From assembly GCA_028706415.1 (NCBI GenBank), contig JAQWBK010000001.1, positions 1 to 51,190 of the forward strand: a DNA stretch of 51,190 bases. The letters are read 5' to 3'. Positions 1,347-50,648 of this stretch are shown one piece after another. The first letter of the stretch is position 1. Each line of letters starts with the position of its first letter. The notes beneath the pieces were generated by a model. That model searched no databases. It had not been told where the DNA came from and saw only the letters and a list, made by a program, of their open reading frames with translations. Position numbers and translations under genes: made by a program. The DNA comes from Oscillospiraceae bacterium. GTDB taxonomy: Bacteria; Bacillota; Clostridia; Oscillospirales; Acutalibacteraceae.

Positions 1347-1543
1347 TACTGTTCTCAAGTAAAAGGTGAGACAAAATTTGCGAGGATGTTTTTCGTCATG
1401 CAAGGCGGAGGAGGAGAGCGGGCTGACGCCCGCCGACGACAACAACGCTGTATGTCGGAAAACAGACCGCAAAGATGTCTTGATTTTTACTTGAGAGCAG
1501 TATTAACCCCCCTCGGCTTTCAGCCGAGGGGGGTTGAGTTGTG
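1347..1543 (+). repeat. Copy A of a long imperfect-palindrome intergenic repeat family
   Basis: Outer arms TACTGTTCTCAAGTAAAA (1347-1364) and TTTTACTTGAGAGCAGTA (1485-1502) are complementary with 1 mismatch. Inner arms 1387-1401 / 1450-1464 pair at 14 of 15 positions, two of them G:T. The centre is CGGGCTGACGCCCG. The 3' module CCCCCCTCGGCT-TTCA-GCCGAGGGGGGTTGAGTTGT recurs in reverse orientation beside copy C. Confidence 0.8.
1507..1533. terminator. GC-rich hairpin between the convergent YfhO-like and HtrA genes (part of repeat copy A)
   Basis: Stem CCCCCCTCGGC (1507-1517) / GCCGAGGGGGG (1523-1533) of 11 bp. It sits 13 nt beyond the htrA stop on the minus strand. The U-tracts are weak on both strands. 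Confidence 0.5.
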
Positions 1544-12664: not shown

Positions 12665-12730
12665 ATCCTACCCCCCCGATTATAATATAATAAATCAATT
12701 ATAACACATTGCATGAAAAACAGGCAATAT

Positions 12731-12853
12731 AATACTAATCGCTCATTAATACTAATCCCTTACTGATAACGCTTAATAGCCCGCCGACGACAACAACGCT
12801 GTATGGCGGAAAACAGACCCCAAAGATGACTTGATTTTTACTTGAGAGCAGTA
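12731..12853 (+). repeat. Copy B of the palindromic repeat family (chimeric or truncated)
   Basis: Bases 12779-12853 match the right half of copy A (1427-1502) with only a few substitutions. The left end TAATACTAATCCCT matches the reverse complement of the right terminus of copy C. Confidence 0.75.
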
Positions 12854-12998
12854 TAATATATAACTCCCCCAGCCGCCTATGGCGACCGAGGGAGTGAAGA
12901 TTTCTGTTAAATGTGGAAGGTGCCTTCCAAGTCTTTTTGGTGCCCCCTTGCATCTCTCGGGCTTTGCTAACAAGAAAAAAAGTCCAAGCCCCTATTAA

Positions 12999-13867: not shown

Positions 13868-14020
13868 TTTGCCATACAGTATCCTGCAGGATGTGATGCT
13901 GTGTATCGGACCCAACGCAGGCAGATACAAGGCGGGGGCAAACGCGAGAGCGTGGGTTATGGCAAAATATGTACGAAGGTGGGGGCGCACCTATATATGC
14001 GGCCCTACGGCATCACAAAT
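13868..14020 (+). repeat. Divergent fifth member of the palindromic repeat family (GC-rich structured island in an AT-rich spacer)
   Basis: GCAGGATGTGATGCTGTGTATCGG and ACAAGGCGGGGG...GAGAGCGTGGG resemble the left arm and centre of copies A and C. Self-complementary pairs are TTTGCCATA (13868-13876) / TATGGCAAA (13958-13966) and TGTGATGC (13892-13899) / GCATCACA (14010-14017). Confidence 0.35.
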
Positions 14021-14152
14021 AATCTCTCCGAATAAATGTATTTAATTTTGCGTGCATATAGTTATAAAATACGCATCATTTTGAATGTAATCATAATCCT
14101 TCAAGCGTATTTGTTTCTCTTCGGTAAATTCATTTTTCTGCCACCTACGCGT

Positions 14153-14376
14153 AATACAACTCAACCACCCTCGGCTGAAAGCTGAGGGGTTCGGCTGGCG
14201 GCTGGAATCCGTCTAATACTAATATCCGACTAAAATATTGATAAGGTTTCCGAGGATATTTTGTGTCGGGCAAGGCAGATGACGCAGGCGGGCTGACGCC
14301 CGGCAAGGAGGATACCGCAGACAGACGAAAAACAAACCGCAAAGACAGGATGATTTTTATCAGGGATTAGTATTAG
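14153..14376 (+). repeat. Copy C of the palindromic repeat family
   Basis: Outer arms are CTAATACTAAT (14213-14223) and ATTAGTATTAG (14366-14376). The left arm CCGAGGATATTTTGTGTCGGGCAAGG and the centre CGGGCTGACGCCCG match copies A and D. The upstream hairpin module ACAACTCAACCACCCTCGGCTGAAAGCTGAGGGG is the reverse complement of the 3' module of copy A. Confidence 0.8.
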
Positions 14377-14469: not shown

Positions 14470-14514
14470 GCCGAAAACAAAGATACTGCCCAAAAGGGCA
14501 GTATCTTTGTTTTT
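14470..14514. terminator. Boundary hairpin, copy 1 of 2 identical 45-bp sequences; terminator of the minus-strand gene array
   Basis: The sequence is GCCGAAAACAAAGATACTGCCCAAAAGGGCAGTATCTTTGTTTTT. It forms an 18-bp perfect stem (14474-14491 / 14496-14513) with a 4-nt loop. It lies 58 nt beyond the stop of the last minus-strand gene and is identical to 49317-49361. Confidence 0.8.
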
Positions 14515-16726: not shown

Positions 16727-16860
16727 TTTAAATGCTCATCCTTTTACTTGCTTCATTAAATAGGTCTAGGTAGCCTTTGCCATCCACCGGTGTATCTTCC
16801 TGCTTTGAGTAAACCAAATTACAACTCTAAAAGTACCCATTTTGAGTAATATAATCTCTA

Positions 16861-38421: not shown

Positions 38422-40089
38422 ATGGTGGGAAACAGAAATCCTGTCTATTCCGATATGGTTATTGTTCAGGATGGTCACCCCTATGCAACCATTGTTGTGG
38501 CGCAGAATCCTTCATCAAAGGTTTTAAAAGCTGCCGAAGATCTACAAGATATGATTAAGCGCATATCAGGCGCCACGCTTCCAATATCTGATGACCGCCT
38601 GACAGGAGTGGGAAACAGAATCCTGGTCGGGGAATCAAGAGAAACTATCGATATGGGCTTTTTGCAACCGCACGGTTATCCCGACAATGAGCGGGTGATC
38701 TTATGGCGGGACGGTGAAAAGCTGGTTCTCATGGGAAATGACGATGAGGTGTTCACAGGTACGCAGTTTGCTGTAACCATGCTGCTCGAAAGGCTTGGTT
38801 GCGGGTGGTACGGCATTGACGAGCTATGGCAGGTCATCCCTAAGAAAGATAACCTTTGTGTCGGATATTTACATATAGATCATACACCGGCTTTCAGCTC
38901 CCGCCGGAACTGGGTTCTGAGAACAAATCGCGAACTGAGTCTGCGATGGTATCTCGGAGGCAGCGAAAAAGAAATCGAACACGCATACTGGCGGCTGTTC
39001 CCGCGTGAAATATATTTTGAACAACACCCCCAGTGGTACTGTCTGATTGACGGCGTTCGGAATCCTTTTATTGAATGGTGGCAGATGTGCTATTCAAACC
39101 CTGAAGTTGTACAACAAACGATCGAAAAAATTGACAGGTTTATTATTGATAACCCAACCTATACCCAGGCTACTCTTTCGGCAAACGATGGCTTTTTCGA
39201 AGGCTTTTGCGAGTGTGAAGAATGCCGAAAAATGGGTACGCCCGGAGAAACAATGGTTAGGTTTGTCAATCAGGTTGCTGAAGGCCTTGAAAAATCGCAT
39301 CCTGATAAGCACCTCATGATTTTTATCTATTTCCCCACCTATGACCCGCCGAGAACAAAAATGCCGCTGCACAAAAATGTCATGCTGATGTTCTGTAAGG
39401 AGTCCTGTATGTTCCATTCCGTTGATACCGGACCGGACTGCGGATATCATATCCGGTATCAATATGAATTCGGGCATACCTTTTATGAGCTGCCCTGGCT
39501 GGAAAACGCTAAAAAGTGGATGGATATGACCGACTGCAAAAATGTTTCAATATGGGAGTGGTATTGCCCTGCTGCAGCTCTTCCGGTTTGGAAGGATATA
39601 CCGTGGGTGCAGGGCGATGTAGCCACCCGCAACCAACGCTGTTTTAAGGAACTGGGCGCTCAGTACATATATTACGATCAGGGACCGGTAGATGCGTATA
39701 ACGATACCCAGTCAAGCTATCCGCTACGGTGGCCGCTGTGGTATGTCGTGGCAAAAGGTATGTGGGACATGCATATAACAGCATCCGAAATTATTATGGA
39801 AGCCTGCAAAAAACTTTTTGAAGAAGCTGCCGATCTCATGTTCTCTTATTACAGCTGCCTTGCAGATATCAATGAAAGCTGTGACGCAAAGGCAATTGCG
39901 TGGCATATGCCCGAGCCCTATGAATTTTATACTCCCGAGGCTATATCAAGGGTTGACAGAATCGTCAATTTGGGTGAAAGCATCCTCCCCCAGGTATCAA
40001 AAACCGTGCGGCTCAGAATGGAAAACCAATTTTCGCTTTGGCGTAAAGCAAATGAAGTCATTCAGGAAACCAAGCCCGGTGATAAATAA
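38422..40089 (+). CDS. DUF4838-like putative glycosidase, cytoplasmic form (right arm)
   Basis: It is a paralogue of 18747..20426. Motifs are LGCGWYGIDELW, HPQWY, ANDGFFEGFCECEEC, IPWVQGDVATRN and LRWPLWYV. There is no signal peptide. A GGGGG RBS lies 8 nt upstream. Confidence 0.8.
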   Translation: MVGNRNPVYSDMVIVQDGHPYATIVVAQNPSSKVLKAAEDLQDMIKRISGATLPISDDRLTGVGNRILVGESRETIDMGFLQPHGYPDNERVILWRDGEKLVLMGNDDEVFTGTQFAVTMLLERLGCGWYGIDELWQVIPKKDNLCVGYLHIDHTPAFSSRRNWVLRTNRELSLRWYLGGSEKEIEHAYWRLFPREIYFEQHPQWYCLIDGVRNPFIEWWQMCYSNPEVVQQTIEKIDRFIIDNPTYTQATLSANDGFFEGFCECEECRKMGTPGETMVRFVNQVAEGLEKSHPDKHLMIFIYFPTYDPPRTKMPLHKNVMLMFCKESCMFHSVDTGPDCGYHIRYQYEFGHTFYELPWLENAKKWMDMTDCKNVSIWEWYCPAAALPVWKDIPWVQGDVATRNQRCFKELGAQYIYYDQGPVDAYNDTQSSYPLRWPLWYVVAKGMWDMHITASEIIMEACKKLFEEAADLMFSYYSCLADINESCDAKAIAWHMPEPYEFYTPEAISRVDRIVNLGESILPQVSKTVRLRMENQFSLWRKANEVIQETKPGDK

Positions 40090-40114
40090 ATGCGAATGTT
40101 AGGAAGAAAATACA

Positions 40115-42094
40115 ATGATGGATTTAACCTTTAAAAACTTGTCTCTTAAAAGCGCAAATCTTAACCGGGAAAGTGCATTTCCTTCAATAATACCGGTTAT
40201 AAATGTTCAAACAGAAAAGTCCGTTTCTTTGGATGAGGAAGATGAGATATTTTTTGATATAGGGAAAATCCGGAGTATTTACCCTTATAACCAGCAGGAT
40301 CTGTATGACCGCTCCCTTGAAGATCGTAAGTATAAAGCCGCGGTTCTTGAAAACAATTACCTGAAAGCGATTTTCTTGCCCGAGCTTGGCGGAAGACTAT
40401 GGTCGCTGTATGACAAAATTTCCGGAAGGGAGCTTTTGTATTTAAACGACAGTATAAGATTTTGCAATCTGGCGCTCCGCAACGCATGGTTCAGCGGCGG
40501 CGTTGAATGGAACATTGGGATGATCGGGCACACTCCGTTCACCTGCGAACCCTTATTCACTGCTCGTCTAAAAGCCTCTGATGGAACTCCGATACTGAGA
40601 ATGTATGAATATGAAAGGCTCCGCGGTGTCACCTATCAGATGGATTTCAGCCTGCCTGGGAATTCCCAAATGCTACTGTGCCGTATGCGGATATGCAATC
40701 TGCAAAACCGCACCATTCCCATGTATTGGTGGAGTAATATGGCCATCAGGGAACAAAAAGATGTTCGGGTTATAGTGCCCGCCGATTCGTCCTATTACAG
40801 CACCGGGAATACCATCAGCAAGACCACGGTACCCATACGAAAGGGACGAGATGTGTCATATCCTGTGAACACCGATAGCTCGATGGACTATTTTTACCGT
40901 ATTCCGGATGGGAAAAGAAATTACATCGCAGCGGTTGACCGGACAGGACAAGGAATGGTGCAAACCTCTACCCGCCGCCTAAGGGGAAGAAAGCTGTTCG
41001 TTTGGGGGCAGTGCCAAGGTGGGCATACTTGGCAGCGCTTTTTGACTGATAAAGCGGGTGATTATGCAGAAATCCAGGCAGGGCTTGGGCGCACTCAGTA
41101 TGAATGTATCCCCATGCCGCCGCTCAGCGCATGGGAGTGGGTCGAAGGTTATGGCGCACTTAACGCCAATCCCAGTGCCGTACACGGTGACTGGGACACA
41201 GCTCAAATCGAAGTGGAAAACAGACTTAATGAGATTGCTACCGAAAAGTGGTTTGATGATTATTTGAAATCCTCATTAAAGGATTACACCCTAAAAAAAG
41301 GAGAGGTCATTCAATACGGCTCGGGTTTCGGAGCTCTTGAAAGCCTAAGAAGATTAAAGTCGGGGGAGAAATTTCCCGATCACCTTGATTTCGGAAAACC
41401 GGATGAAAAACAGCAGCATTGGTTGCAGCTACTCGAAACCGGAAAGCTTCCCAGCCCTAACCCCAAAGAAAGCCCTCCTTCTTATATGCTCGACGATAAA
41501 TGGTTTGAATTATTAAAAGAAAGCTGTAAAAATGATGCGACCAACTGGTACGCCCATTATCATATCGGTATGTTCCTTATCGGACGCGGTGATTATCTTA
41601 ATGCCGCGCGGAGTCTTGAAACATCTTGGTCAATACAGCCGTCATGCTGGATCAGCTATGGGCTGGCGGCCTGCTGTTATGCAGACGGTGACCTTGAAAA
41701 CGCAGTCAAACATATACTGGATGCACTGAAGTTTAATCCGGATGATGTATCTCTTGCAAGGGACTGTTTTAGATTTATGTATGAGGCCGATATGTTTGGT
41801 GAAATACAGGAGTGCTATAAAAATATTTCTGTCTCCCTCCAACAGGACGGCAAACTTAAATTCTACCTTGCCGTCGCCTATGCGAAAATGGGTGAGTTGG
41901 AAAAAGCAGAGTCACTGCTATATGAAAATGGTGGTTTGATAATCCCCGTCATTCGGGAAGGCGAGGTTTCGCTTACATCTCTATGGTTTTTCATTGAAGA
42001 GCAGAAACACATAAAGCGCGGCGAGATTTTTGATGCAAATATTCAGCCTCCCGAATTTTTAGATTACCGTACTGCTGTTAAAAATGAAACTTAA
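40115..42094 (+). CDS. DUF5107-like domain protein with C-terminal TPR repeats (cytoplasmic, function unknown)
   Basis: The N-terminal ~400 aa carry NAWFSGGVEWNIGMIGHTP and RKLFVWGQCQGGHTWQRFL, which I remember as DUF5107-type patterns. The C-terminal part is TPR-like (WYAHYHIGMFLIGRGDYLNAARSLE, KFYLAVAYAKMGELEKAE). Confidence 0.55.
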   Translation: MMDLTFKNLSLKSANLNRESAFPSIIPVINVQTEKSVSLDEEDEIFFDIGKIRSIYPYNQQDLYDRSLEDRKYKAAVLENNYLKAIFLPELGGRLWSLYDKISGRELLYLNDSIRFCNLALRNAWFSGGVEWNIGMIGHTPFTCEPLFTARLKASDGTPILRMYEYERLRGVTYQMDFSLPGNSQMLLCRMRICNLQNRTIPMYWWSNMAIREQKDVRVIVPADSSYYSTGNTISKTTVPIRKGRDVSYPVNTDSSMDYFYRIPDGKRNYIAAVDRTGQGMVQTSTRRLRGRKLFVWGQCQGGHTWQRFLTDKAGDYAEIQAGLGRTQYECIPMPPLSAWEWVEGYGALNANPSAVHGDWDTAQIEVENRLNEIATEKWFDDYLKSSLKDYTLKKGEVIQYGSGFGALESLRRLKSGEKFPDHLDFGKPDEKQQHWLQLLETGKLPSPNPKESPPSYMLDDKWFELLKESCKNDATNWYAHYHIGMFLIGRGDYLNAARSLETSWSIQPSCWISYGLAACCYADGDLENAVKHILDALKFNPDDVSLARDCFRFMYEADMFGEIQECYKNISVSLQQDGKLKFYLAVAYAKMGELEKAESLLYENGGLIIPVIREGEVSLTSLWFFIEEQKHIKRGEIFDANIQPPEFLDYRTAVKNET

Positions 42095-42113
42095 ATGATC
42101 CGGGGGTGTAATT

Positions 42114-43004
42114 TTGCTACGTGGCTTGAAATTTCATTTTAATAATGAATATTCATGTGAACCTGTGAGATGCGGTTCCATTCTTATGTGGCAAATCGGC
42201 GACATCGGTTGTGACCCCGGCTATGTAGTAAAGGATCACGAGCAATGTTGCTATGAAATCACCTGCGTTGTGGGTGGCCGCGGCTCAATATCCCGAAATG
42301 ACAAATTTTACGACATTCATAAAGGGCAGCTTTTTTTGAACCGTTGCGGGGAAATACATTGTATAAAATCGGATGTAATGGAGCCTATCCGCTACTTTTA
42401 CCTTGGATTTGATTTTGATAAAAAACTAACACAAGGAATATGGAAGGATATTAAGGACGCTTTTGACGAATGCGAAAACCCGCTGGCCAATGATATATCC
42501 GATGTTCACAATATCTTTTCAAGCGTTTTTAACGAAATGATGACCAATGACACGGCATCCCAGAAAATGATTGAATATTCCGTTTATCAAATACTTTTGC
42601 TCTCATACCGCGCTCTTATGCTGAAAAATCCCCGCCGTTACATATCGGGAGAGCCCATGGAGCAGTCGCGACAGCTGATTTATTCGATCATCGTCTATAT
42701 TGACACAAATATTTGTGCAATAGAGCATCTGAACGATGTTAGCAAACAGGTCGGATACAGCTATACCTATATATCCAGACTCTTCACAAAGGTTGTAGGT
42801 AAATCCCTCAGGAATTATTACAATGAAAAAAGATTTGAAAAGGCCGTTGGCTTTCTGGCGTCCGGAATGAAAAGCACGCAGGTCGCCACTCTACTTAATT
42901 ATAAATCTCTGCATAGCTTCAGCAAAGCCTTCAGTAATTATTACGGTATGTCACCTACCCAATACAAGGAAAAAGTTTTAAACAAAAATAAGGACAATTG
43001 TTAA
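42114..43004 (+). CDS. AraC-family transcriptional regulator (cupin sensor plus dual HTH)
   Basis: The TTG start has GGGGGTG upstream. The cupin-like part reads KGQLFLNRCGEIHCI. The AraC HTH reads LNDVSKQVGYSYTYISRLFTKVVG...VATLLNYKSLHSFSKAFSNYYGMSPTQYK. Confidence 0.88.
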   Translation: MLRGLKFHFNNEYSCEPVRCGSILMWQIGDIGCDPGYVVKDHEQCCYEITCVVGGRGSISRNDKFYDIHKGQLFLNRCGEIHCIKSDVMEPIRYFYLGFDFDKKLTQGIWKDIKDAFDECENPLANDISDVHNIFSSVFNEMMTNDTASQKMIEYSVYQILLLSYRALMLKNPRRYISGEPMEQSRQLIYSIIVYIDTNICAIEHLNDVSKQVGYSYTYISRLFTKVVGKSLRNYYNEKRFEKAVGFLASGMKSTQVATLLNYKSLHSFSKAFSNYYGMSPTQYKEKVLNKNKDNC

Positions 43005-43059
43005 TGCGGTTAAGATAAACGAAAGATGACCGTGAGCTTAAAATCGCATATGTGGAGAA

Positions 43060-43977
43060 ATGGGGATTTTTATGAGAATCATGGGTTTGGATTGTGGAGT
43101 GACCGAAATACGCGGCATTGTATGCAACCAGGACGGAAAAGTTCTTAATACTGCACGAATGGCTGCAGAGTCAGGTGAGGGCTTTTTTAAATATATTCAT
43201 AATATTCAGTCCCTGGTAAATACACTTGCACAACCTTACAGCGAAATTAGCTGCGTCGGGGTGGCTTCAACCGGCCGTATCGATCCCCAAAACGGGATCG
43301 TTTTAAATTCTACAATCCCGGGTTATACAGGAATCAACCTTCGTGTGGTGGTCAGTTCGGTGCTTGATGTGGATGTTGTGGTACAAAATAGTGACCGTGC
43401 AGCCCTAATAGGTGAAAGCTGGATGGGTGCTGCAAAAGGCTACAAAGATGTCGTTCTTTTAACATTGGGAACCATTGTCGGCGGCGCAACCATGATTGAC
43501 GGAAACATTCACCACGGCAGTAGTTTTCGCGCAGGTGAGTGGGGGCATATGCAGCTTATCCCAAACGGGAAACCCTGTTCATGTGGAAGGACAGGCTGTC
43601 TGGAGCAATACATAGCGACAAGTATCCTTTCGGAACAAATGGAAAGAGTGCTTGGCCTAAACGCCTGCAGGGAGGAATACCATGAGCTTTACCCGGGCGA
43701 AAATGAAAATATTGCAGCCGTTCTTGGTGAATTCACCGGTCATCTTGCCTGGGCGGTGGGAAACATAGAAGCTACCGCGGATCCCGAACTGGTTTTGATT
43801 GGTGGAGAAAGCTTTGAATGGTTTGATATTTTTTCACCCCTTCTTTCCGGCGAACTGGCAAAACGAAACATCCGTCTTCCGGTCAAAAAAATACTGCTAG
43901 GCTCAGATTCAGGTTGTATTGGAGCAGTTAAGCTTGCACTTGAAAATTGTCAATGTACGAAAAATAAAAATAAATAA
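43060..43977 (+). CDS. ROK-family protein, sugar-kinase type (no N-terminal HTH)
   Basis: The ROK zinc motif CSCGRTGCLEQY and the ExGH motif GEWGHM are present. The N-terminal phosphate loop is the unusual GLDCGVT. An alternative start is ATG 43075. Confidence 0.85.
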   Translation: MGIFMRIMGLDCGVTEIRGIVCNQDGKVLNTARMAAESGEGFFKYIHNIQSLVNTLAQPYSEISCVGVASTGRIDPQNGIVLNSTIPGYTGINLRVVVSSVLDVDVVVQNSDRAALIGESWMGAAKGYKDVVLLTLGTIVGGATMIDGNIHHGSSFRAGEWGHMQLIPNGKPCSCGRTGCLEQYIATSILSEQMERVLGLNACREEYHELYPGENENIAAVLGEFTGHLAWAVGNIEATADPELVLIGGESFEWFDIFSPLLSGELAKRNIRLPVKKILLGSDSGCIGAVKLALENCQCTKNKNK

Positions 43978-44004
43978 TTCAGCAGAGAAAGGGAATGAAT
44001 GTAA

Positions 44005-44982
44005 ATGCAAAAACAAGCAAGAAGATTTATGGTTTTTTTCTTAGCCTTAAGTTTCATGTTCGGTACATTCATGGGATTTTCCGCTCAGGCCTTGACCGCA
44101 AAAATGATTACGATTAAAACAAACAGCGACATCAACCCCTTCATCCGCATAGGGCTGCATAAGAGAACCTTTGCATCAGGCGGCCCATTTACAGTGAAAT
44201 GTGAAATAAAAATAGACAGCTATCAGAAGTTAAAGCCCGACAGTAATATTTTTGTAAATATTACAGACGGACGCGATCCCGAAAATATGGTTGTATGGTT
44301 GAATCAATACCGAAAACCAACCGACGGATGGGTTGAAATGAAGCAGGACAACGGCAATTTTATAACCTTCAACAATATCGATAAGGTGATGATTAGCGGT
44401 GCGTTTGAGGAATTCGCCCTTCTGCAAATGGGTGCTTATTTTGTAAAAGGTGTCGTCTCTTTCCGCAATTTCCGTGTTTACAACGCTGCCAATATGATAG
44501 TTTATTCCTGGGACACCGATGAGAATTTTAAAGAAGTTACAAATCTGAAGGACTTCGGCGGAGATACTGCTTTTGCCTGCACATTTGGAGACGGCTCGGG
44601 TGAATTTCAAGTCTCGAATTCAGATCTCTCCGGTAAGACTTCCGCTGCGACCACCACAAAGGATGACGGGCCTCTTTATGAGAGCACCACCTCGTCGTCA
44701 ACTAATAAAACCACCCCCACAAAGGCAATCGACACAACCAGTCTTTTGGAGACTACCACAACTTCATCAGACGAAGAAACAGCCGAAACAACCGATGAGA
44801 TTGTTGACGACACAACCCTTGTTAGCACAACCTCTACCCTTGCTTCAGATGTTGAAACAGATGAAAAGGAAAGCTCAATTTTATGGTTGCCAATATCCAT
44901 CGTTGGCGGATTAATAATACTCCTTGGAACGGCATTCCTCATTCTGTGGAAAACAAAAAAACTCCCATGGCAGAATAATTAG
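44005..44982 (+). CDS. Surface protein with one CBM-like domain, T/S-rich stalk and a C-terminal TM anchor (right arm)
   Basis: It is a paralogue of 24450..25430 (ITIKTNSDINPFIRIGL...GGPFTVKCEIKID...FRNFRVYNAANMIVYSWDTD). It has a signal peptide, a stalk, and the TM helix LPISIVGGLIILLGTAFLIL. Confidence 0.7.
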   Translation: MQKQARRFMVFFLALSFMFGTFMGFSAQALTAKMITIKTNSDINPFIRIGLHKRTFASGGPFTVKCEIKIDSYQKLKPDSNIFVNITDGRDPENMVVWLNQYRKPTDGWVEMKQDNGNFITFNNIDKVMISGAFEEFALLQMGAYFVKGVVSFRNFRVYNAANMIVYSWDTDENFKEVTNLKDFGGDTAFACTFGDGSGEFQVSNSDLSGKTSAATTTKDDGPLYESTTSSSTNKTTPTKAIDTTSLLETTTTSSDEETAETTDEIVDDTTLVSTTSTLASDVETDEKESSILWLPISIVGGLIILLGTAFLILWKTKKLPWQNN

Positions 44983-45033
44983 GTGGCCACTTTAAAACAC
45001 CGCTTTTAGGAAATAGCCGGATAAATTTAAGGG

Positions 45034-46077
45034 ATGAGCATTATGATTAATAGATTAAACGCACAATTTAAGAATGTTTTTCAGACAGCCGACAGGTTTA
45101 TGGAGGATAATAAACAACATTATCTAAATAAAAGCGGAGGCTTTTTGAAGAGCGCCGGCAAGGCCGTTTTGATGGTGGGTTTGTGCTTTGTAATGTTATA
45201 TCCAATGCTGTTTATTCTGTCCGCAAGCTTTAAAACGCTGGATGACTTGTATAATCCTTCTGTGGTCTGGTTGCCGCGTTCATTTAATATGGAAGCCATG
45301 AAAATTGCGTTGGCACTCATGAAATACTCAGAGTCTGTTTTAAAAACACTTACAATAATGATTCCAAGCGTTTTATTTCAGTTGGTCGCCGTCCTCATGA
45401 CCGGATACGGCTTCGCAAGATTTAAATTCTGGGGGAAGAATCTACTTTTCGGATTTTTGATTTTCACAATCATTGTTCCAGTGCAGTCATACATCATCCC
45501 TCTGTATGTTAACCTGAAGAACTTTAATTTCTTTGGGGTGGGGTCGCTTATAGGTCTTGTCAGTGGCCAAGCCGTGACTACAAACCTGCTGGATACCAAC
45601 ACCCTCTTCTATTTGCAGGCAATACTGGGTATGGGTATAAGGTCCGGATTGTGCATTTTTATCATTCGTCAGTTCTTTAAAAACATTCCTGTGGAGCTTG
45701 AGGAAGCGGCCACAATTGACGGCTGCGGACCCATCAGAACATTCATGAGGGTTATGATCCCGAATGCGCTGCCGCTTATAGCTACAGTTGTTGTTTTCTC
45801 AATTGTATGGTATTGGAACGATTTTTATTTATCATCAATGTTTTTCCGCACTGATTTCCCTCTATCCGTCAACCTTACAACCCTGAGAACTACTCTAAGC
45901 TCATCAGATCAGGTGGTTAACGGTGTTTCCGGAATATCCAGTCAGGAGCTTGTGCTTATGAGGGAACCGATTTTGGCGTGCGGGTGCCTGATTACGGTCT
46001 TGCCGCTTGTTATTTTTTATGTGTTTTTGCAGCGCTATTTTACCGAAGGCGTAGAAAGAAGTGGCATTGTCGGCTGA
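45034..46077 (+). CDS. Carbohydrate ABC transporter permease (MalG-like, right arm)
   Basis: The EAA loop is VELEEAATIDGCGPIRTFMRVMIPN. It is a close paralogue of 21812..22834. An alternative start at ATG 45043 has better RBS spacing. Confidence 0.9.
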   Translation: MSIMINRLNAQFKNVFQTADRFMEDNKQHYLNKSGGFLKSAGKAVLMVGLCFVMLYPMLFILSASFKTLDDLYNPSVVWLPRSFNMEAMKIALALMKYSESVLKTLTIMIPSVLFQLVAVLMTGYGFARFKFWGKNLLFGFLIFTIIVPVQSYIIPLYVNLKNFNFFGVGSLIGLVSGQAVTTNLLDTNTLFYLQAILGMGIRSGLCIFIIRQFFKNIPVELEEAATIDGCGPIRTFMRVMIPNALPLIATVVVFSIVWYWNDFYLSSMFFRTDFPLSVNLTTLRTTLSSSDQVVNGVSGISSQELVLMREPILACGCLITVLPLVIFYVFLQRYFTEGVERSGIVG

Positions 46078-46130
46078 TTTGCTCGGTCTTGGCGTTGATC
46101 TTATCATTTTGTTATGAAAGGAACTTATTG

Positions 46131-47417
46131 ATGAAAAATCATTTTATAAAATTAGTGCTGTCGGTAATTTTGGTGCTTATAATAATTTTTATATCTGCGT
46201 GTAATAAGCCCGCGGTTTCGGGAACCTCATCAAATGATCAAAGCAAAACATTGAACTTGGATTCGGAAAAAGGCAAAAAACTAACATTTATGCTTCCGGC
46301 CTTCAATTATGATGATACGAATAAGTGGGAAAATAAAGTCTTGAAAGAATTTAAGGAAACCTATCCTGATGTAACCTTGGAGCTCTTATCCGCCAGTATT
46401 GAAAACTGGATGGTAAAGCTTCTTGCCAACGCAAGCGGCGGCGACCCTATAGATGTTTTTCAGGATAGCGCCAACAATAATCCGATGTACGCCCTTCAGG
46501 GCATCAATCAGCCGCTTCAGGATTACATAGACATGAACAACCCCAACCTCCATATGGCGACCATGGATGCCGTATTCAAATACAACGGAAATTACCATGT
46601 CGCAGTTGCAGAATCCAGCGTGTGCATAGTTTATTATAATAAAGATATTTTTGAAAATGAGGGCGTAGATACGCCTGATGAACTTTACAAGGCGGGAAAA
46701 TGGGATTTCGATAATATGATCCGGGTCGCAAAAGAGCTCACTTACAACAACAATAGCGGTAAACGCTGGGGGCTGGCTTGCAATTATCCGTATATATTCT
46801 TCGGCGCAAATGCTACCTCGATGGTAACGCTGGATAAGAACTACAAATATAATTTGAACATTAACGACCCGAATCTAAAGTATTCGTTTGAAGTCATACA
46901 GGATGCATGGTATAAAAGCAAATGGCAGGGCTGGCAAGGTACTCCGTGGAATTCATTTTATAACGGCTCGGCAGCAATGCTGACGGATTTCAAATGGGTC
47001 GAGGAGCAGATTATCGAGGCGAAGAACTACGGATTGTGCGATTTTGAATACGGCGTAGTTCCTATGGCTTCCGGCCCCAACAATCCGAAAGGGCTTGCAC
47101 CCATGACCGCGTTTGGGTTTGCAATGGGTAAAGAAAGCGATACTCCGTATCATTCGGGTATTCTTATCGATATGCTGATAAACGGTGAAGCAGCGCATAA
47201 AAAAGAGACCGGTAAGGTTATCCCCGCCGAACACCAAGAGGTGTATAACAAGCTTTCACTGATTCCGTTTTGCATTAACAGCTATGATTCTGCTGTGGGC
47301 GGAGCCTTTGAGATATGCCAGGCAATAGGTGCCGGTCAAAGCATCTCACAGGCTATTGCGGAATACACCCCGATTTATCAGCAGAAGATTGATCAGGCAA
47401 ACGGCGATAACAAGTGA
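46131..47417 (+). CDS. ABC transporter extracellular solute-binding lipoprotein (right arm)
   Basis: I set the start at ATG 46131 (MKNHFIKLVL...FISAC lipobox) with GAAAGGAAC upstream. The track ORF start at 45978 overlaps the permease. It is a paralogue of 20438..21739. Confidence 0.88.
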   Translation: MKNHFIKLVLSVILVLIIIFISACNKPAVSGTSSNDQSKTLNLDSEKGKKLTFMLPAFNYDDTNKWENKVLKEFKETYPDVTLELLSASIENWMVKLLANASGGDPIDVFQDSANNNPMYALQGINQPLQDYIDMNNPNLHMATMDAVFKYNGNYHVAVAESSVCIVYYNKDIFENEGVDTPDELYKAGKWDFDNMIRVAKELTYNNNSGKRWGLACNYPYIFFGANATSMVTLDKNYKYNLNINDPNLKYSFEVIQDAWYKSKWQGWQGTPWNSFYNGSAAMLTDFKWVEEQIIEAKNYGLCDFEYGVVPMASGPNNPKGLAPMTAFGFAMGKESDTPYHSGILIDMLINGEAAHKKETGKVIPAEHQEVYNKLSLIPFCINSYDSAVGGAFEICQAIGAGQSISQAIAEYTPIYQQKIDQANGDNK

Positions 47418-47442
47418 TATATGAAGCAACTGGAGGGTAAAT

Positions 47443-49311
47443 ATGAAAGGCATCAAGAAAATCGGTTTTGGGCTGTTGACCAAGATATTGGCCTTAACAC
47501 TGGTCGCTTGTAATGTATCCGATGTTACAAGCAGCAGCACCGCTTCCAAGCATGAAGATAACCCCGTTACGAATGGGATAACCTCAACCTCAAAACGCCA
47601 AACAGATAATAGTACAAAAGCCGACAGCACTACGGTCACTACAGCGGCTCCGACTTCAACCACAGTAGTTGTCAAGCCCCAGCCATCGGATTTCATTATC
47701 GCGGAAAATTCAATAGCAAAATCGACCATTGTTATCCCTGCATCCCCCTCCGATAAGGTGAGAGCCACTGCTGAAGAATTACAGAAATATTTAAAGAAAA
47801 TTTCGGGCGCCGGCATTGCGATTGGATTTGATAATGTTGACCGGACAAACGGCAACTTTATCCTGGTCGGCCCCACCGCCCAGACCAAAGCCATGGGTAT
47901 AAAAATCCCGACCGGTTACCCCGATAACGAAAGAGTAATAGTTAAACGAAACAAAAATTACATCGCGCTTATAGGCAATGACGACGGTGAATTCACAGGA
48001 ACCGAGTTTGCTGTTAATATGTTCCTTGAAGAGTTGGGATGCGGCTGGTATGGGCCGGATGAGCTGTGGCAGGTTGTCCCCGAACATAATACTCTTGCTA
48101 TCAAAAAGCTGGATATAAACCATACCCCCCAGTTCAAATCAAGAATAAGCAATGTATGGTTTAATTATCAGAAGTTTTCGAAAAAATGGTACATGGGGGG
48201 AGCAAAAAAGTTTGTAGGGCACGGTGTGACGCAGCTTATTCCGCGAGAAACTTATTTTCCGACCCATCCGGAATGGTTTGCTGAAGTGGACGGCAAGCGC
48301 GATCCCTTTGATGCTTTTTACTGGCAGTATTGCTATACAAACAAGGAACTGGCTTCTGAAGTCGGGAAAAAAGCAATTGCCAAATTTGACGCTGATCCAA
48401 ACCTAACTCAATACTCCGTTGCTGCCAACGACGGTTGGGAAGAAGATTGGTGTGAATGTTCGGTATGTTCGAGTCTGGGTAATGATACAGACGAGCTGCT
48501 TACCTTTGCAAACAATGTCGCCAAGGTGGTTGCAAAAAAATATCCTAATAAAAAGATTTCTATTTTAAGCTACCATTCAACATTTTTCCCGCCTGAGAGC
48601 AGCATAAAAGCAGAGCCTAATGTCGAGGTCATGTTCTGCCGGGAAACAAGCATGACTGTACCGCTTGATCTAAATCTTAAAATTCCAACAGGCTTTAACT
48701 CGATAACACATAACACATACACCCAGTCTTGGCTCGGAAATTTTAAAGATTACATCAATAAAACAAATTTAAAGCACCTTTCCATCTGGGAATGGCACTG
48801 CATCGCTGCCGATAAAACCGTCTGGTCTGAGATCCCGTGGGTGCAGGGCAATGTGTCTTCCAGAAATCAAAAGCTGTGGAAAGATAACGGTGTTTCCTAT
48901 ACCTATTATGATCAGGGGCCAAGCCCGACATATAATGAGACCGAAAAAAGCTTTTCCCTTCGCTGGCCTCTTTGGTATGTATCGGCAAAGGGTATGTGGG
49001 ATGGGCGTTTTACCGGTGAGCAGATCTTAAAACAAGCTTGCGATAAGCTTTACGGCAAAGCCTCGGCGGAAATGTATGAATATTATAAAGCTCTGGCCGA
49101 CAGCAGCGAACAGTGCAGGTCATCAAACAGTGTCGCATGGATACCGCCAAATCCTGGTGAAGTTTATACAACTGCAAGAATTACGGTAATTGATAAGGCG
49201 GTCAGCGCAGCAAAAGCAAAGTTAAGCAGCGCTACCCCAGTTCAAAAGCAACGCATGGAGAATCAGTTCAAATCCTGGGAAAACGCCAAGCTCCTGATAA
49301 AATTAGGTTAA
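47443..49311 (+). CDS. DUF4838-like putative glycosidase, extracellular lipoprotein form (right arm)
   Basis: The lipobox is LVAC and an S/T-rich linker follows. It is highly similar to 16861..18750 along its full length (e.g. ANDGWEEDWCECSVC, KAEPNVEVMFCRETSMTVPLDLNL, ITHNTYTQSWLGNFK). A strong GGAGGG RBS is present. Confidence 0.82.
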   Translation: MKGIKKIGFGLLTKILALTLVACNVSDVTSSSTASKHEDNPVTNGITSTSKRQTDNSTKADSTTVTTAAPTSTTVVVKPQPSDFIIAENSIAKSTIVIPASPSDKVRATAEELQKYLKKISGAGIAIGFDNVDRTNGNFILVGPTAQTKAMGIKIPTGYPDNERVIVKRNKNYIALIGNDDGEFTGTEFAVNMFLEELGCGWYGPDELWQVVPEHNTLAIKKLDINHTPQFKSRISNVWFNYQKFSKKWYMGGAKKFVGHGVTQLIPRETYFPTHPEWFAEVDGKRDPFDAFYWQYCYTNKELASEVGKKAIAKFDADPNLTQYSVAANDGWEEDWCECSVCSSLGNDTDELLTFANNVAKVVAKKYPNKKISILSYHSTFFPPESSIKAEPNVEVMFCRETSMTVPLDLNLKIPTGFNSITHNTYTQSWLGNFKDYINKTNLKHLSIWEWHCIAADKTVWSEIPWVQGNVSSRNQKLWKDNGVSYTYYDQGPSPTYNETEKSFSLRWPLWYVSAKGMWDGRFTGEQILKQACDKLYGKASAEMYEYYKALADSSEQCRSSNSVAWIPPNPGEVYTTARITVIDKAVSAAKAKLSSATPVQKQRMENQFKSWENAKLLIKLG

Positions 49312-49316
49312 TAACA

Positions 49317-49361
49317 GCCGAAAACAAAGATACTGCCCAAAAGGGCAGTATCTTTGTTTTT
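49317..49361. terminator. Boundary hairpin, copy 2 of 2 identical 45-bp sequences; terminator of the plus-strand gene array
   Basis: It is identical to 14470-14514. The stem is 49321-49338 / 49343-49360 with loop AAAA. It begins 6 nt after the stop codon and is followed by a T-run. Confidence 0.85.
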
Positions 49362-50323: not shown

Positions 50324-50417
50324 GTTGTTTCCCTCTTTCTCGGCTTAAAGAAAATATAGTTTGATTGTCAAACTTATATTGGATAAGAAAAGCACAAAAG
50401 TGCTAAAAACTCTTTAA

Positions 50418-50582
50418 TTAAGGTCACCTCTAAAAACCTGTTTTGAACGGATTCCGAGCAGAATTTTTGTCGGGCAAGGAAAGCCGACGAAGCAATGCTT
50501 TCCGCATTACGAGGAGGTTTGACGCAGTCCGGCGGAAATTGTGCTGGAAGACACCAGAAGGGGCTTTTAGAGGTGACCTTAA
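50418..50582 (+). repeat. Copy D of the palindromic repeat family
   Basis: Perfect 18-bp outer arms are TTAAGGTCACCTCTAAAA (50418-50435) and TTTTAGAGGTGACCTTAA (50565-50582). The left arm CCGAGCAGAATTTTTGTCGGGCAAGG matches copies A and C. The inner helix 50467-50475 / 50527-50535 pairs at 9 of 9 positions if four G:T pairs are allowed on the plus strand. Confidence 0.8.
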
Positions 50583-50648
50583 GATATCATATTATATATT
50601 ATTAGTCAAGATATAATACTGTTCGGTTTTTTTGTTCCCCCAATACTT

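What the first reader, a model, noticed from the sequence alone, without database searches (positions are those of the whole stretch)
1347..1543. Family of ~150-220-nt imperfect palindromes fills five intergenic gaps, and the outer arms differ between copies while staying self-complementary
The copies are A 1347-1543, B 12731-12853, a divergent copy at 13868-14020, C 14153-14376 and D 50418-50582.

They share an inner left arm (consensus roughly CGAGGATNTTTTNGTCGGGCAAGG) and, in A and C, the centre CGGGCTGACGCCCG. The outermost arms are completely different sequences in A (TACTGTTCTCAAGTAAAA), C (CTAATACTAAT) and D (TTAAGGTCACCTCTAAAA). Each pairs perfectly or nearly so with its own partner arm.

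This is compensatory variation, so selection or a copying mechanism acts on the hairpin rather than on its sequence. A and C also carry the same GC-rich terminator-like hairpin module (…CCTCGGCT-N4-GCCGAGGG…GGTTGAGTTGT) but on opposite sides.

No copy lies inside a gene, and none encodes a transposase. The options are a MITE/REP-like element, a structured ncRNA family, or a recombination or replication-related DNA cruciform.
Basis: seen in the sequence. Interest (0 to 1): 0.62.

Follow-up and report, generated by a model that had tools for sequence, protein, structure and literature searches.

The report
High-copy hairpin MITE family in Clostridia
The palindromes are copies of a small non-coding mobile DNA element (a MITE) that is present in many copies in uncultured anaerobic Clostridia; it is an ordinary kind of thing, but this family seems undescribed, and its hairpin shape has been kept through many compensating mutations.

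Summary
The repeats are real, but not as drawn. A (1347-1502), C (14217-14372) and D (50421-50579) are full copies of one ~158-nt family. B (12733-12853) is a rearranged copy that keeps only the right half. The "divergent copy" at 13868-14020 is not a member.

Many genomes hold several near-identical copies, often at contig ends. In metagenomes the k-mer depth over A and D is about 100-390 times that of the flanks.

Among 47 distinct ATAC-type copies, 42 are flanked by the same base inside T-N-A. This is a 3-bp TNA target-site duplication around TAC...GTA ends. Two other subfamilies fit a TA duplication. This is the signature of a non-autonomous cut-and-paste transposon.

The compensatory variation is confirmed: 39 of 55 pairs show double changes and 92.5% of cells pair. 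It is strand-specific (G·U 94 against A·C 13).

No transposase partner and no empty site were found. Rfam, plasmids and phages gave no match. Correia and ERIC elements are architectural analogues, not detectable homologues.

Verdict: a new member of a known kind.

The parts
1347..1502 (+). Copy A: full-length MITE with TAC...GTA ends. It is flanked by TCA (1344-1346) and TTA (1503-1505), a TNA duplication with one later mismatch.
   Evidence: HMM 113 bits. CM 155.6 bits. DNA fold z -9.95. Contigs from other loci diverge exactly at 1346 and 1503-1505.
12733..12853 (+). Copy B: rearranged copy. It holds two left-terminus fragments (ATACTAATCGCTCATT and AATACTAATCCCTTACTGATAA) joined to an A-type right half. 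It is flanked by TAA (12730-12732) and TAA (12854-12856).
   Evidence: HMM positions 83-158 only, 42.5 bits. Alignment with A. Sequence read directly.
14217..14372 (+). Copy C: full-length but apparently hybrid. The left arm looks like the ATCCGACT subfamily and the right arm like the CCCTGAT subfamily. It is flanked by TAA (14214-14216) and TTA (14373-14375).
   Evidence: HMM 125 bits. CM 119.8 bits. Weak fold, z -2.8. Alignments. The 97-99% identical relative L001 lacks 14141-14325.
50421..50579 (+). Copy D: full-length copy of a divergent subfamily with T-TA-AGGTCACC... ends. It is flanked by TA (50419-50420) and TA (50580-50581).
   Evidence: HMM 68 bits. CM 107.6 bits. Fold z -6.1. K-mer depth about 2000 against about 15 in the flanks. 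A second copy at another site is in L022.
1509..1542 (+). 34-nt GC-rich terminator-like hairpin plus GGTTGAGTTGT. It is a neighbour of copy A, not part of the element.
   Evidence: Inverted repeat I10 with 14156-14189, 94%. It lies outside the HMM and CM boundaries. Its own depth is raised about 15-fold.
14156..14189 (-). The same 34-nt hairpin module, inverted, 27 nt upstream of copy C. It is a neighbour, not part of the element.
   Evidence: I10. Pattern search. A similar module lies next to the L017 copy.

Best explanation
These are copies of a non-autonomous DNA transposon: a MITE of about 158 bp with no ORF.

**How it most likely moves (inferred)**
- A transposase encoded elsewhere binds the terminal inverted repeats.
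- It excises or copies the element and inserts it at a staggered cut.
- The cut is 3 nt at T-N-A for the main ATAC-type subfamilies. It is 2 nt at T-A for the ATAG-type and D-type subfamilies.
- Repair of the cut gives the observed duplication.
- A TA- or TNA-centred duplication is what IS5-family (IS1031, IS427, ISL2 groups) and PIF/Harbinger-type DDE transposases produce, by my own knowledge. That is the most likely kind of partner. IS630 (TA) and IS30 (2-3 bp) are alternatives.

**What is shown about the hairpin**
- The whole element folds into one long imperfect hairpin.
- Across subfamilies the pairing has been kept by compensatory changes.
- The fold is favoured on one strand only, with G·U tolerated and A·C not.

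**What I infer from that**
- The single-stranded form of the + strand is under selection in the lineages that keep propagating. It is probably RNA made when the element is co-transcribed. Single-stranded DNA is possible instead.
- Individual inserted copies mostly decay neutrally.

The copies sit in intergenic DNA, often just beside intrinsic terminators.
For: **Copy number and spread**
Almost all are in Oscillospiraceae, Ruminococcaceae or other Clostridia MAGs.
- Several MAGs contribute many loci each, and matches often lie at contig ends.
- 114 non-overlapping HMM hits were found in the fetched loci and the window.
- Metagenome k-mer depth over A is 2304 against about 12-18 in the flanks, and 4857 at position 1455. 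Over D it is about 2000-2280 against about 15.

**Ends and target duplication**
- In 47 distinct ATAC-type copies, T is at -2 in 45 and A is at +2 in 46.
- The variable flanking base is identical on both sides in 42 and complementary in only 2. All four bases occur.
- All 19 ATAG-type copies read T|ATAG...CTAT|A, which fits a TA duplication.
- Contigs from other loci diverge exactly at the element ends.

**No coding capacity, and position**
- No ORF is conserved. By a crude ORF call, 3 of the roughly 100 longer hits lie within a long ORF and the rest lie between genes.

**Hairpin**
- 55 consensus pairs, 39 with double changes.
- 92.5% of cells pair, against 72.9% in shuffles and 40-47% with slid partners. 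0 of 500 shuffles reach the observed values.
- The + strand is more stable than the - strand in 19 of 19 sequences (mean MFE -75.3 against -57.2 kcal/mol). The alifold energy is -61.4 against -23.9. G·U 94 against A·C 13.
- Among near-identical clusters of copies, changes at Watson-Crick pairs give G·U 35, A·C 19 and other mismatches 62.

**Other**
- Metatranscriptome contigs from three studies hold an A-type copy joined to other flanks.
- 17 of 72 copies have a terminator-like hairpin within 50 nt. The control is 29 of 399 intergenic TNA sites.
Against: - No autonomous partner was found.
  - No IS-like repeat occurs in the fetched loci.
  - The ORFs next to truncated copies are housekeeping genes.
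- No empty site was seen. The near-identical strains laid on the window all carry A and D. The one scan for the empty site of A gave only a chance match.
- Orientation relative to co-directional flanking ORFs is 25 antisense to 13 sense. Read-through transcripts would therefore often carry the less stable strand. This weakens the RNA reading of the strand bias.
- The RNA evidence is unstranded contigs and may include DNA carry-over.
- The sequences are related, so the shuffle controls overstate significance.
Confidence: 0.8

Rival explanations
1. A family of structured non-coding RNA genes (sRNA or cis-regulatory RNA) that happens to be multi-copy. On this view the hairpin is the functional product and the copies spread by duplication.
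For: - Strong covariation.
- Strand-specific G·U preference.
- Presence in metatranscriptome contigs.
Against: - Near-identical copies lie at many unrelated sites, each with a TNA duplication.
- Copy depth is in the hundreds.
- No conserved promoter or terminator is seen in the window copies.
- Both orientations relative to neighbouring genes occur.
- There is no Rfam match.
- RNA contigs run on into the flanks rather than ending at the element.
Confidence: 0.07
2. A single-stranded-DNA hairpin element moved by a structure-recognising enzyme. Candidates are REPIN with a RAYT, an IS200/IS605-derived PATE, or an attC-like site for an integrase.
For: - The whole-length hairpin is conserved by covariation.
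- Only one strand folds well, as for IS608 ends and attC bottom strands.
- No DDE partner was found.
Against: - A real target duplication with a variable middle base is present in 42 of 47 copies. Y1/HUH transposition and attC recombination make none (own knowledge).
- The copies are scattered singly or in pairs between housekeeping genes, not in the regularly spaced arrays expected of attC sites.
- The ends carry no GTAG-type REP motif (read directly from the sequences).
Confidence: 0.06
3. The family is a distant member of one orphan superfamily with Neisseria Correia elements and enterobacterial ERIC. On this view related, still unidentified transposases move all three.
For: - The ATAG-type terminus TATAGTCGATTAAC matches the Correia repeat TATAGTGGATTAAC at 13 of 14 positions (and PMC5039591).
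- A real ERIC copy reads TA|TACTC...GAGTA|TA. The ATAC-type reads TNA|TACTAAT...ATTAGTA|TNA.
- Size and hairpin architecture are alike.
- The best CM hits in the Neisseria loci are the Correia elements, at 28 bits.
Against: - The profile HMM finds no Correia or ERIC element.
- The CM match covers only the AT-rich outer stem and skips the interior. Other hairpins in the same loci score 17-23 bits.
- BLAST of D against E. coli finds nothing.
- Short AT-rich termini can converge.
Confidence: 0.1

Closest known systems
Correia repeat-enclosed elements (CREE/NEMIS) of Neisseria
   Same: - Similar size (about 100-155 bp) and no ORF.
- Terminal inverted repeats, and the whole element folds as a long hairpin.
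- A TA duplication, shared with the ATAG-type and D-type subfamilies here.
- High copy number and an intergenic position.
- One subfamily shares 13 of 14 terminal bases.
- From the literature: co-transcribed and cleaved by RNase III at the hairpin, with no partner transposase identified (PMC10969869, and own knowledge).
   Different: - No detectable homology of the interior. The CM hit covers the outer stem only.
- The main subfamilies here duplicate 3 bp (TNA), not TA.
- The hosts are anaerobic Clostridia, not Neisseria.
- An IHF site and RNase III processing were not tested.
ERIC (enterobacterial repetitive intergenic consensus, 127 bp)
   Same: - An imperfect palindrome with TAC...GTA ends next to TA.
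- Intergenic and co-transcribed.
- RNA-level constraint with compensatory changes has been proposed (own knowledge: Wilson and Sharp 2006).
- Effects on mRNA stability are reported (PMC10969869).
   Different: - No sequence homology by HMM, CM or BLAST.
- Different host phylum.
- Different duplication length for the main subfamilies.
MITEs derived from the IS5 family (IS1031, IS427, ISL2 groups) and Tourist MITEs of PIF/Harbinger
   Same: A 2-3-bp duplication centred on TA (TNA or TWA), short inverted repeats and a small size. This is from my own knowledge of those families, set.
   Different: - No IS with matching ends was found here.
- The typical ends of those IS families (GA/GG...) differ from TAC/TAG.
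- Conservation of a hairpin along the whole length is not a known feature of them.
REPIN/RAYT systems
   Same: Hairpin-forming, high-copy, intergenic elements that persist over long times within a lineage.
   Different: REPINs have no target duplication and depend on a Y1 transposase acting on REP hairpins. Here the duplication is clear.

Membership tests
MITE (miniature inverted-repeat transposable element) | Small size (under about 300 bp) with no transposase ORF | tested here: met
   Lengths are 124-179 nt. No ORF is conserved across subfamilies.
MITE | Terminal inverted repeats | tested here: met
   Ends are ATACTAAT...ATTAGTAT, TATAGTCGATTAAC...CTATA or TTAAGGTCACC...GGTGACCTTAA.
MITE | Target-site duplication of fixed length | tested here: met
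   42 of 47 ATAC-type copies show T-x-A on both sides with the same x. All 19 ATAG-type copies fit TA.
MITE | Many near-identical copies at unrelated sites in one genome | tested here: met
   Clusters of 5-23 copies at 88% similarity or more. Several MAGs contribute many loci each. Depth is about 100-390 times the flanks.
MITE | Insertion polymorphism: filled against empty orthologous sites | tested here: inconclusive
   The strains in four metagenomes all carry A and D. L001 differs at C by a complex indel, not a clean empty site. The scan for an empty site gave a chance hit.
MITE | An autonomous IS with the same ends in the same genomes | tested here: inconclusive
   None was found in the fetched loci. 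Whole genomes could not be searched.
Correia element (CREE) | Homology to the CREE consensus, including the 26-bp repeat TATAGTGGATTAA... | tested here: not met
   nhmmer gives no hit on real CREE copies. The CM gives 28 bits on the outer stem only. One subfamily matches 13 of 14 bases.
Correia element (CREE) | TA duplication | tested here: inconclusive
   It fits the ATAG-type and D-type copies. The ATAC-type copies duplicate TNA.
ERIC | Homology to the 127-bp consensus | tested here: not met
   No HMM or CM hit on a real ERIC copy. No BLAST hit of D in E. coli.
REPIN/RAYT or IS200/IS605-derived PATE | No target duplication; insertion beside a fixed tetra- or pentanucleotide | tested here: not met
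   A duplication with a variable middle base is present.
Integron attC site | Arrays that separate promoterless cassettes, with R/L boxes (RYYYAAC/GTTRRRY) | tested here: not met
   The copies are scattered singly or in pairs between housekeeping genes. The ends are TAC...GTA.
Any Rfam 15 family | Score at or above the gathering threshold | tested here: not met
   No match over the whole window. Only chance-level hits at permissive thresholds.
IS5-family or PIF/Harbinger-type derivative | A TNA or TA duplication, plus ends shared with a DDE transposon of that family | tested here: inconclusive
   The duplication type fits. No partner element was available to compare ends.

The most novel reading that the evidence does not exclude
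The element's spread depends on its folded single strand and not only on the sequence of its ends. In addition, it belongs with Correia and ERIC to one widespread orphan class of hairpin MITEs. All three have TA(C/G) termini and TA/TNA duplications, and their shared type of transposase has never been identified.

The many Clostridia MAGs with young copies would then allow that enzyme to be found by phylogenetic profiling.
Probability: 0.12. Interest if true: 0.7.

Novelty: new member of a known kind. Interest (0 to 1): 0.42.

Why it matters
- **Assembly and binning.** The element is a high-copy repeat in Oscillospiraceae and Ruminococcaceae genomes from rumen, termite gut, landfill and digesters. 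It breaks metagenome assemblies, since many copies lie at contig ends, and it may mislead binning.
- **Gene expression.** It sits beside terminators and is co-transcribed, so it may alter mRNA stability or read-through, as Correia and ERIC elements do.
- **Evolution of structure.** Its hairpin has been kept by compensatory change on one strand across many genera. This makes it a clean natural case for asking whether a MITE needs its fold to spread.
- **The missing transposase.** The partner is unknown. Finding it here could also bear on the unidentified enzymes behind Correia and ERIC.

Tried and rejected
- **Rfam.** Tried at gathering and at permissive thresholds. Nothing was found.
- **Correia homology.** This started as a lead from memory about the terminal repeat.
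  - Real copies were fetched.
  - The profile HMM found none of them.
  - The covariance model matched only the AT-rich outer stem, at 28 bits.
  - Rejected as membership and kept as an analogy.
- **ERIC homology.** A real copy was fetched. There was no HMM or CM hit, and no BLAST hit of D in E. coli.
- **Plasmids, phages and viral contigs.** No copies were found.
- **Autonomous partner.**
  - All-against-all BLAST of the fetched loci found no IS-like repeat.
  - ORFs next to truncated copies in L019, L061, L076 and L077 are ordinary genes.
- **Empty site of A.** Looking up flanking proteins gave only what looks like the source genome, or nothing.
- **Built-in promoter or terminator.** The consensus scans show nothing inside the window copies.
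- **Small conserved peptide.** An ATG recurs near column 113, but it is absent from several subfamilies and the frames run out of the element. I read this by eye from the alignment and rejected it.
- **REPIN, IS200/IS605 and attC readings.** Rejected because a true target duplication is present.
- **13868-14020 as a divergent copy.** Rejected.

Full report
**1. What is in the window**

Reading the five regions and running the repeat finder shows one real family.
- A, B and C share a 136-nt direct repeat (family D1).
- A, C and D share the left core (family D6).
- A and D have 28-nt terminal inverted arms (I16, I15).
- As single strands, A and D fold far better than shuffles: z -9.95 and -6.1.
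- C folds only modestly (z -2.8). B (z -1.9) and 13868-14020 (z -1.7) are unremarkable.
- The left core TTNCGAGNANNNTTTNNGTCNNGCAAGG occurs three times, against 0.00 expected.
- All copies lie on the + strand.
- Rfam 15 has no match at gathering or permissive thresholds.
- The neighbouring genes are ordinary Firmicute housekeeping genes: YfhO, an HtrA-like protease, a two-component system, AddAB, DUF218 and DegV.

**2. The family outside the window**

- Almost all loci come from Oscillospiraceae, Ruminococcaceae, "Clostridia" or Ruminiclostridium MAGs. The sources named in the record titles include ruminant gut samples.
- Several MAGs contribute many loci each (WRKY01, CAMHJC01, JAQVYP01).
- Matches often lie within 100 nt of a contig end, as expected of a repeat that breaks assemblies.

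I built a profile from 27 non-redundant copies.
- It finds 114 non-overlapping hits in the fetched loci and the window.
- In the window it hits only A (1346-1503), C (14216-14373), D (50424-50551) and the right half of B (12779-12854).
- It finds nothing at 13868-14020.
- A covariance model agrees: A 155.6, C 119.8 and D 107.6 bits.
- Forward-strand scores are near 100-140 bits and reverse-strand scores near 20-30 bits. The element therefore has a defined orientation despite being palindromic.

The window's organism occurs in landfill, bioreactor, wastewater, fermentation and manure metagenomes.
- K-mer depth over A is 2304 against about 12-18 for the flanks, and 4857 at position 1455.
- Depth over D is about 2000-2280 against about 15.
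- Contigs from other loci diverge from the window exactly at 1346 and at 1503-1505, and around 50413-50422 and 50578-50587.
- These depths pool all carriers in a sample, so they show "hundreds of copies in the community" and not a per-genome count.

**3. Ends and target duplication**

I tabulated the flanks of every distinct full-length copy.
- For the 47 copies with ATAC...GTAT ends, position -2 is T in 45 and position +2 is A in 46.
- The base between is the same on both sides in 42 and complementary in only 2.
- That base can be any of A (17), T (17), C (10) or G (3).
- The sequence therefore reads T-x-A | TAC...GTA | T-x-A. This is a 3-bp TNA target-site duplication around an element with TAC...GTA ends.
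- In the window, B has TAA/TAA, A has TCA/TTA and C has TAA/TTA. A and C each carry one mismatch.
- The 19 ATAG-type copies always read T|ATAG...CTAT|A, with no correlation further out. This fits a 2-bp TA duplication.
- The two independent D-type sites (window and L022) also fit TA.

A fixed-length duplication centred on TA, short inverted ends, no ORF and many near-identical copies define a MITE moved in trans by a cut-and-paste transposase.

By my own knowledge, TA and TNA duplications both occur within the IS5 family (IS427, IS1031 and ISL2 groups) and in PIF/Harbinger. IS630 gives TA and IS30 gives 2-3 bp. Which one acts here is inference.

**4. The hairpin**

I analysed 19 non-redundant full-length copies.
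- RNAalifold predicts one long hairpin of 55 pairs. 39 of them have compensatory double changes.
- 92.5% of cells pair. The figure is 72.9% after shuffling partners and 40-47% with partners slid by 1-3 columns. None of 500 shuffles reaches any observed measure.
- Covariation is not confined to the ends. It runs through the inner helices too, while conserved bulges and asymmetric internal loops are kept.
- The arms are therefore not simply fresh inverted duplicates.

The fold is strand-specific.
- All 19 sequences fold better as the + strand. The mean MFE is -75.3 against -57.2 kcal/mol.
- The consensus energy is -61.4 against -23.9.
- G·U cells number 94 against 13 A·C. By my count from the pair table, the figures are still about 62 against 12 without the three conserved U·G columns.

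Among near-identical clusters of copies the picture differs. Changes at Watson-Crick pairs give G·U 35, A·C 19 and other mismatches 62. This looks mostly like neutral decay.

My reading (inference) is that the fold is kept in the lineages that go on propagating, while single insertions drift.

Whether the relevant single strand is RNA or DNA is open.
- Metatranscriptome contigs from three studies contain an A-type copy joined to other flanks. That shows co-transcription rather than a discrete RNA. The contigs are unstranded.
- Between co-directional ORFs the element is antisense 25 times and sense 13 times. This does not favour a simple read-through RNA role for the + strand.

**5. Details of the window copies**

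- B is a rearranged copy. It has two left-terminus fragments followed by an A-type right half that is close to A's sequence. It is still flanked by TAA/TAA.
- C appears to be a hybrid, judged by eye from the alignments. Its left arm matches the ATCCGACT subfamily (as in L003, L016, L017 and L070). Its right arm matches the CCCTGAT subfamily (as in L020). This would explain its weak fold.
- In L001, a relative 97-99% identical over the aligned stretches, window 14141-14325 is replaced by 74 unrelated bases. This locus has been rearranged and is not cleanly empty or filled.
It is a small repeat of its own, with raised depth and a similar module next to the L017 copy.
- More generally, 17 of 72 copies have a terminator-like hairpin within 50 nt. 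The control is 29 of 399 random intergenic TNA sites (odds ratio 3.9, p about 1e-4). This reflects either an insertion preference or better survival beside terminators.

**6. Comparison with known elements**

The ATAG-type terminus TATAGTCGATTAAC recalled the Correia repeat. The literature gives TATAGTGGATTAAC..., a 13 of 14 match (PMC5039591).
- I fetched real Correia elements.
- The profile HMM finds none of them.
- The covariance model ranks them first in the Neisseria loci, but only at 28 bits. It matches just AUA...AAA/UUU...UAU of the outer stem and skips the interior. Unrelated hairpins there score 17-23 bits.

A real ERIC copy reads TA|TACTC...GAGTA|TA but gives no HMM or CM hit. D gives no BLAST hit in E. 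coli.

These elements are therefore the closest analogues in size, architecture, duplication type and co-transcription. They are not demonstrable relatives. The shared TA(C/G) termini remain a lead.

REPIN/RAYT, IS200/IS605 derivatives and attC sites are excluded by the target duplication.

Literature searches found no description of a MITE of this kind in Clostridia.

**7. What is missing**

- No partner transposase was found.
- No copy occurs in plasmids, phages or viral contigs.
- No empty site was seen.

**8. Verdict**

The MITE reading is well supported and the compensatory variation is genuine.

This is a new, widespread family of a known kind of element. It has an unusually well-documented, strand-specific conservation of structure and an unidentified transposase.

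Noticed in passing
window 14470-14514 and 49317-49361 (and 14515-49316 between them): A perfect 45-nt direct repeat (a long terminator hairpin, GCCGAAAACAAAGATACTGCCCAAAAGGGCAGTATCTTTGTTTTT) brackets about 35 kb. In the 97-99% identical relative L001 the whole 35 kb is absent, and DegV sits next to DUF218 with a single copy of the repeat at the junction. This could be a deletion by recombination between the repeats, an insertion, or a low-coverage assembly join.
   Followed up: partly
window 1509-1542 and 14156-14189; L017 320-338: A 34-nt GC-rich hairpin plus GGTTGAGTTGT recurs next to three MITE copies. Its own metagenome depth is raised about 15-fold. It looks like a second, small terminator-like repeat family.
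   Followed up: partly
window 14141-14325 against L001 2502-2575: At the C locus the close relative has 74 unrelated bases, including the palindrome TTTCGACACAAGTGTCGAAA. These replace the hairpin module and the left two-thirds of C. Only C's right end is kept.
   Followed up: partly
flanks of copies in L003-L088: MITE copies are enriched within 50 nt of intrinsic-terminator-like hairpins: 17 of 72 against 29 of 399 control sites. Some copies abut one another head to head and share one TNA, for example L082 7073-7388.
   Followed up: partly
L027 against L078; L022; L043: Two 96-99.8% identical contigs carrying a copy are binned as Lachnospiraceae and as Flexilinea (Chloroflexi). Single motif hits also occur in a Desulfitobacteriaceae bin (L022) and a Pseudomonadales bin (L043). 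The L043 hit was not confirmed by the family HMM and may be a chance match. Mis-binning of repeat-bearing contigs is the likely cause, but horizontal transfer is not excluded.
   Followed up: no
L103 (E. coli ERIC copy), L089-L100 (Correia), family termini: Three orphan hairpin MITE families share terminal trinucleotides next to a TA-centred duplication. ERIC has TA|TAC, Correia has TA|TAG, and this family has TNA|TAC and TA|TAG. No homology was detectable beyond that.
   Followed up: partly
window 16859-25200 against 39000-49313: Long inverted repeats at 70-81% identity (I1-I8) link two clusters of genes on opposite strands. This suggests paralogous clusters in mirror arrangement around about 37 kb, where gene orientation and GC skew also switch. 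Their content was not examined.
   Followed up: no
It is not a family member, has no Rfam match and has no significant fold.
   Followed up: yes
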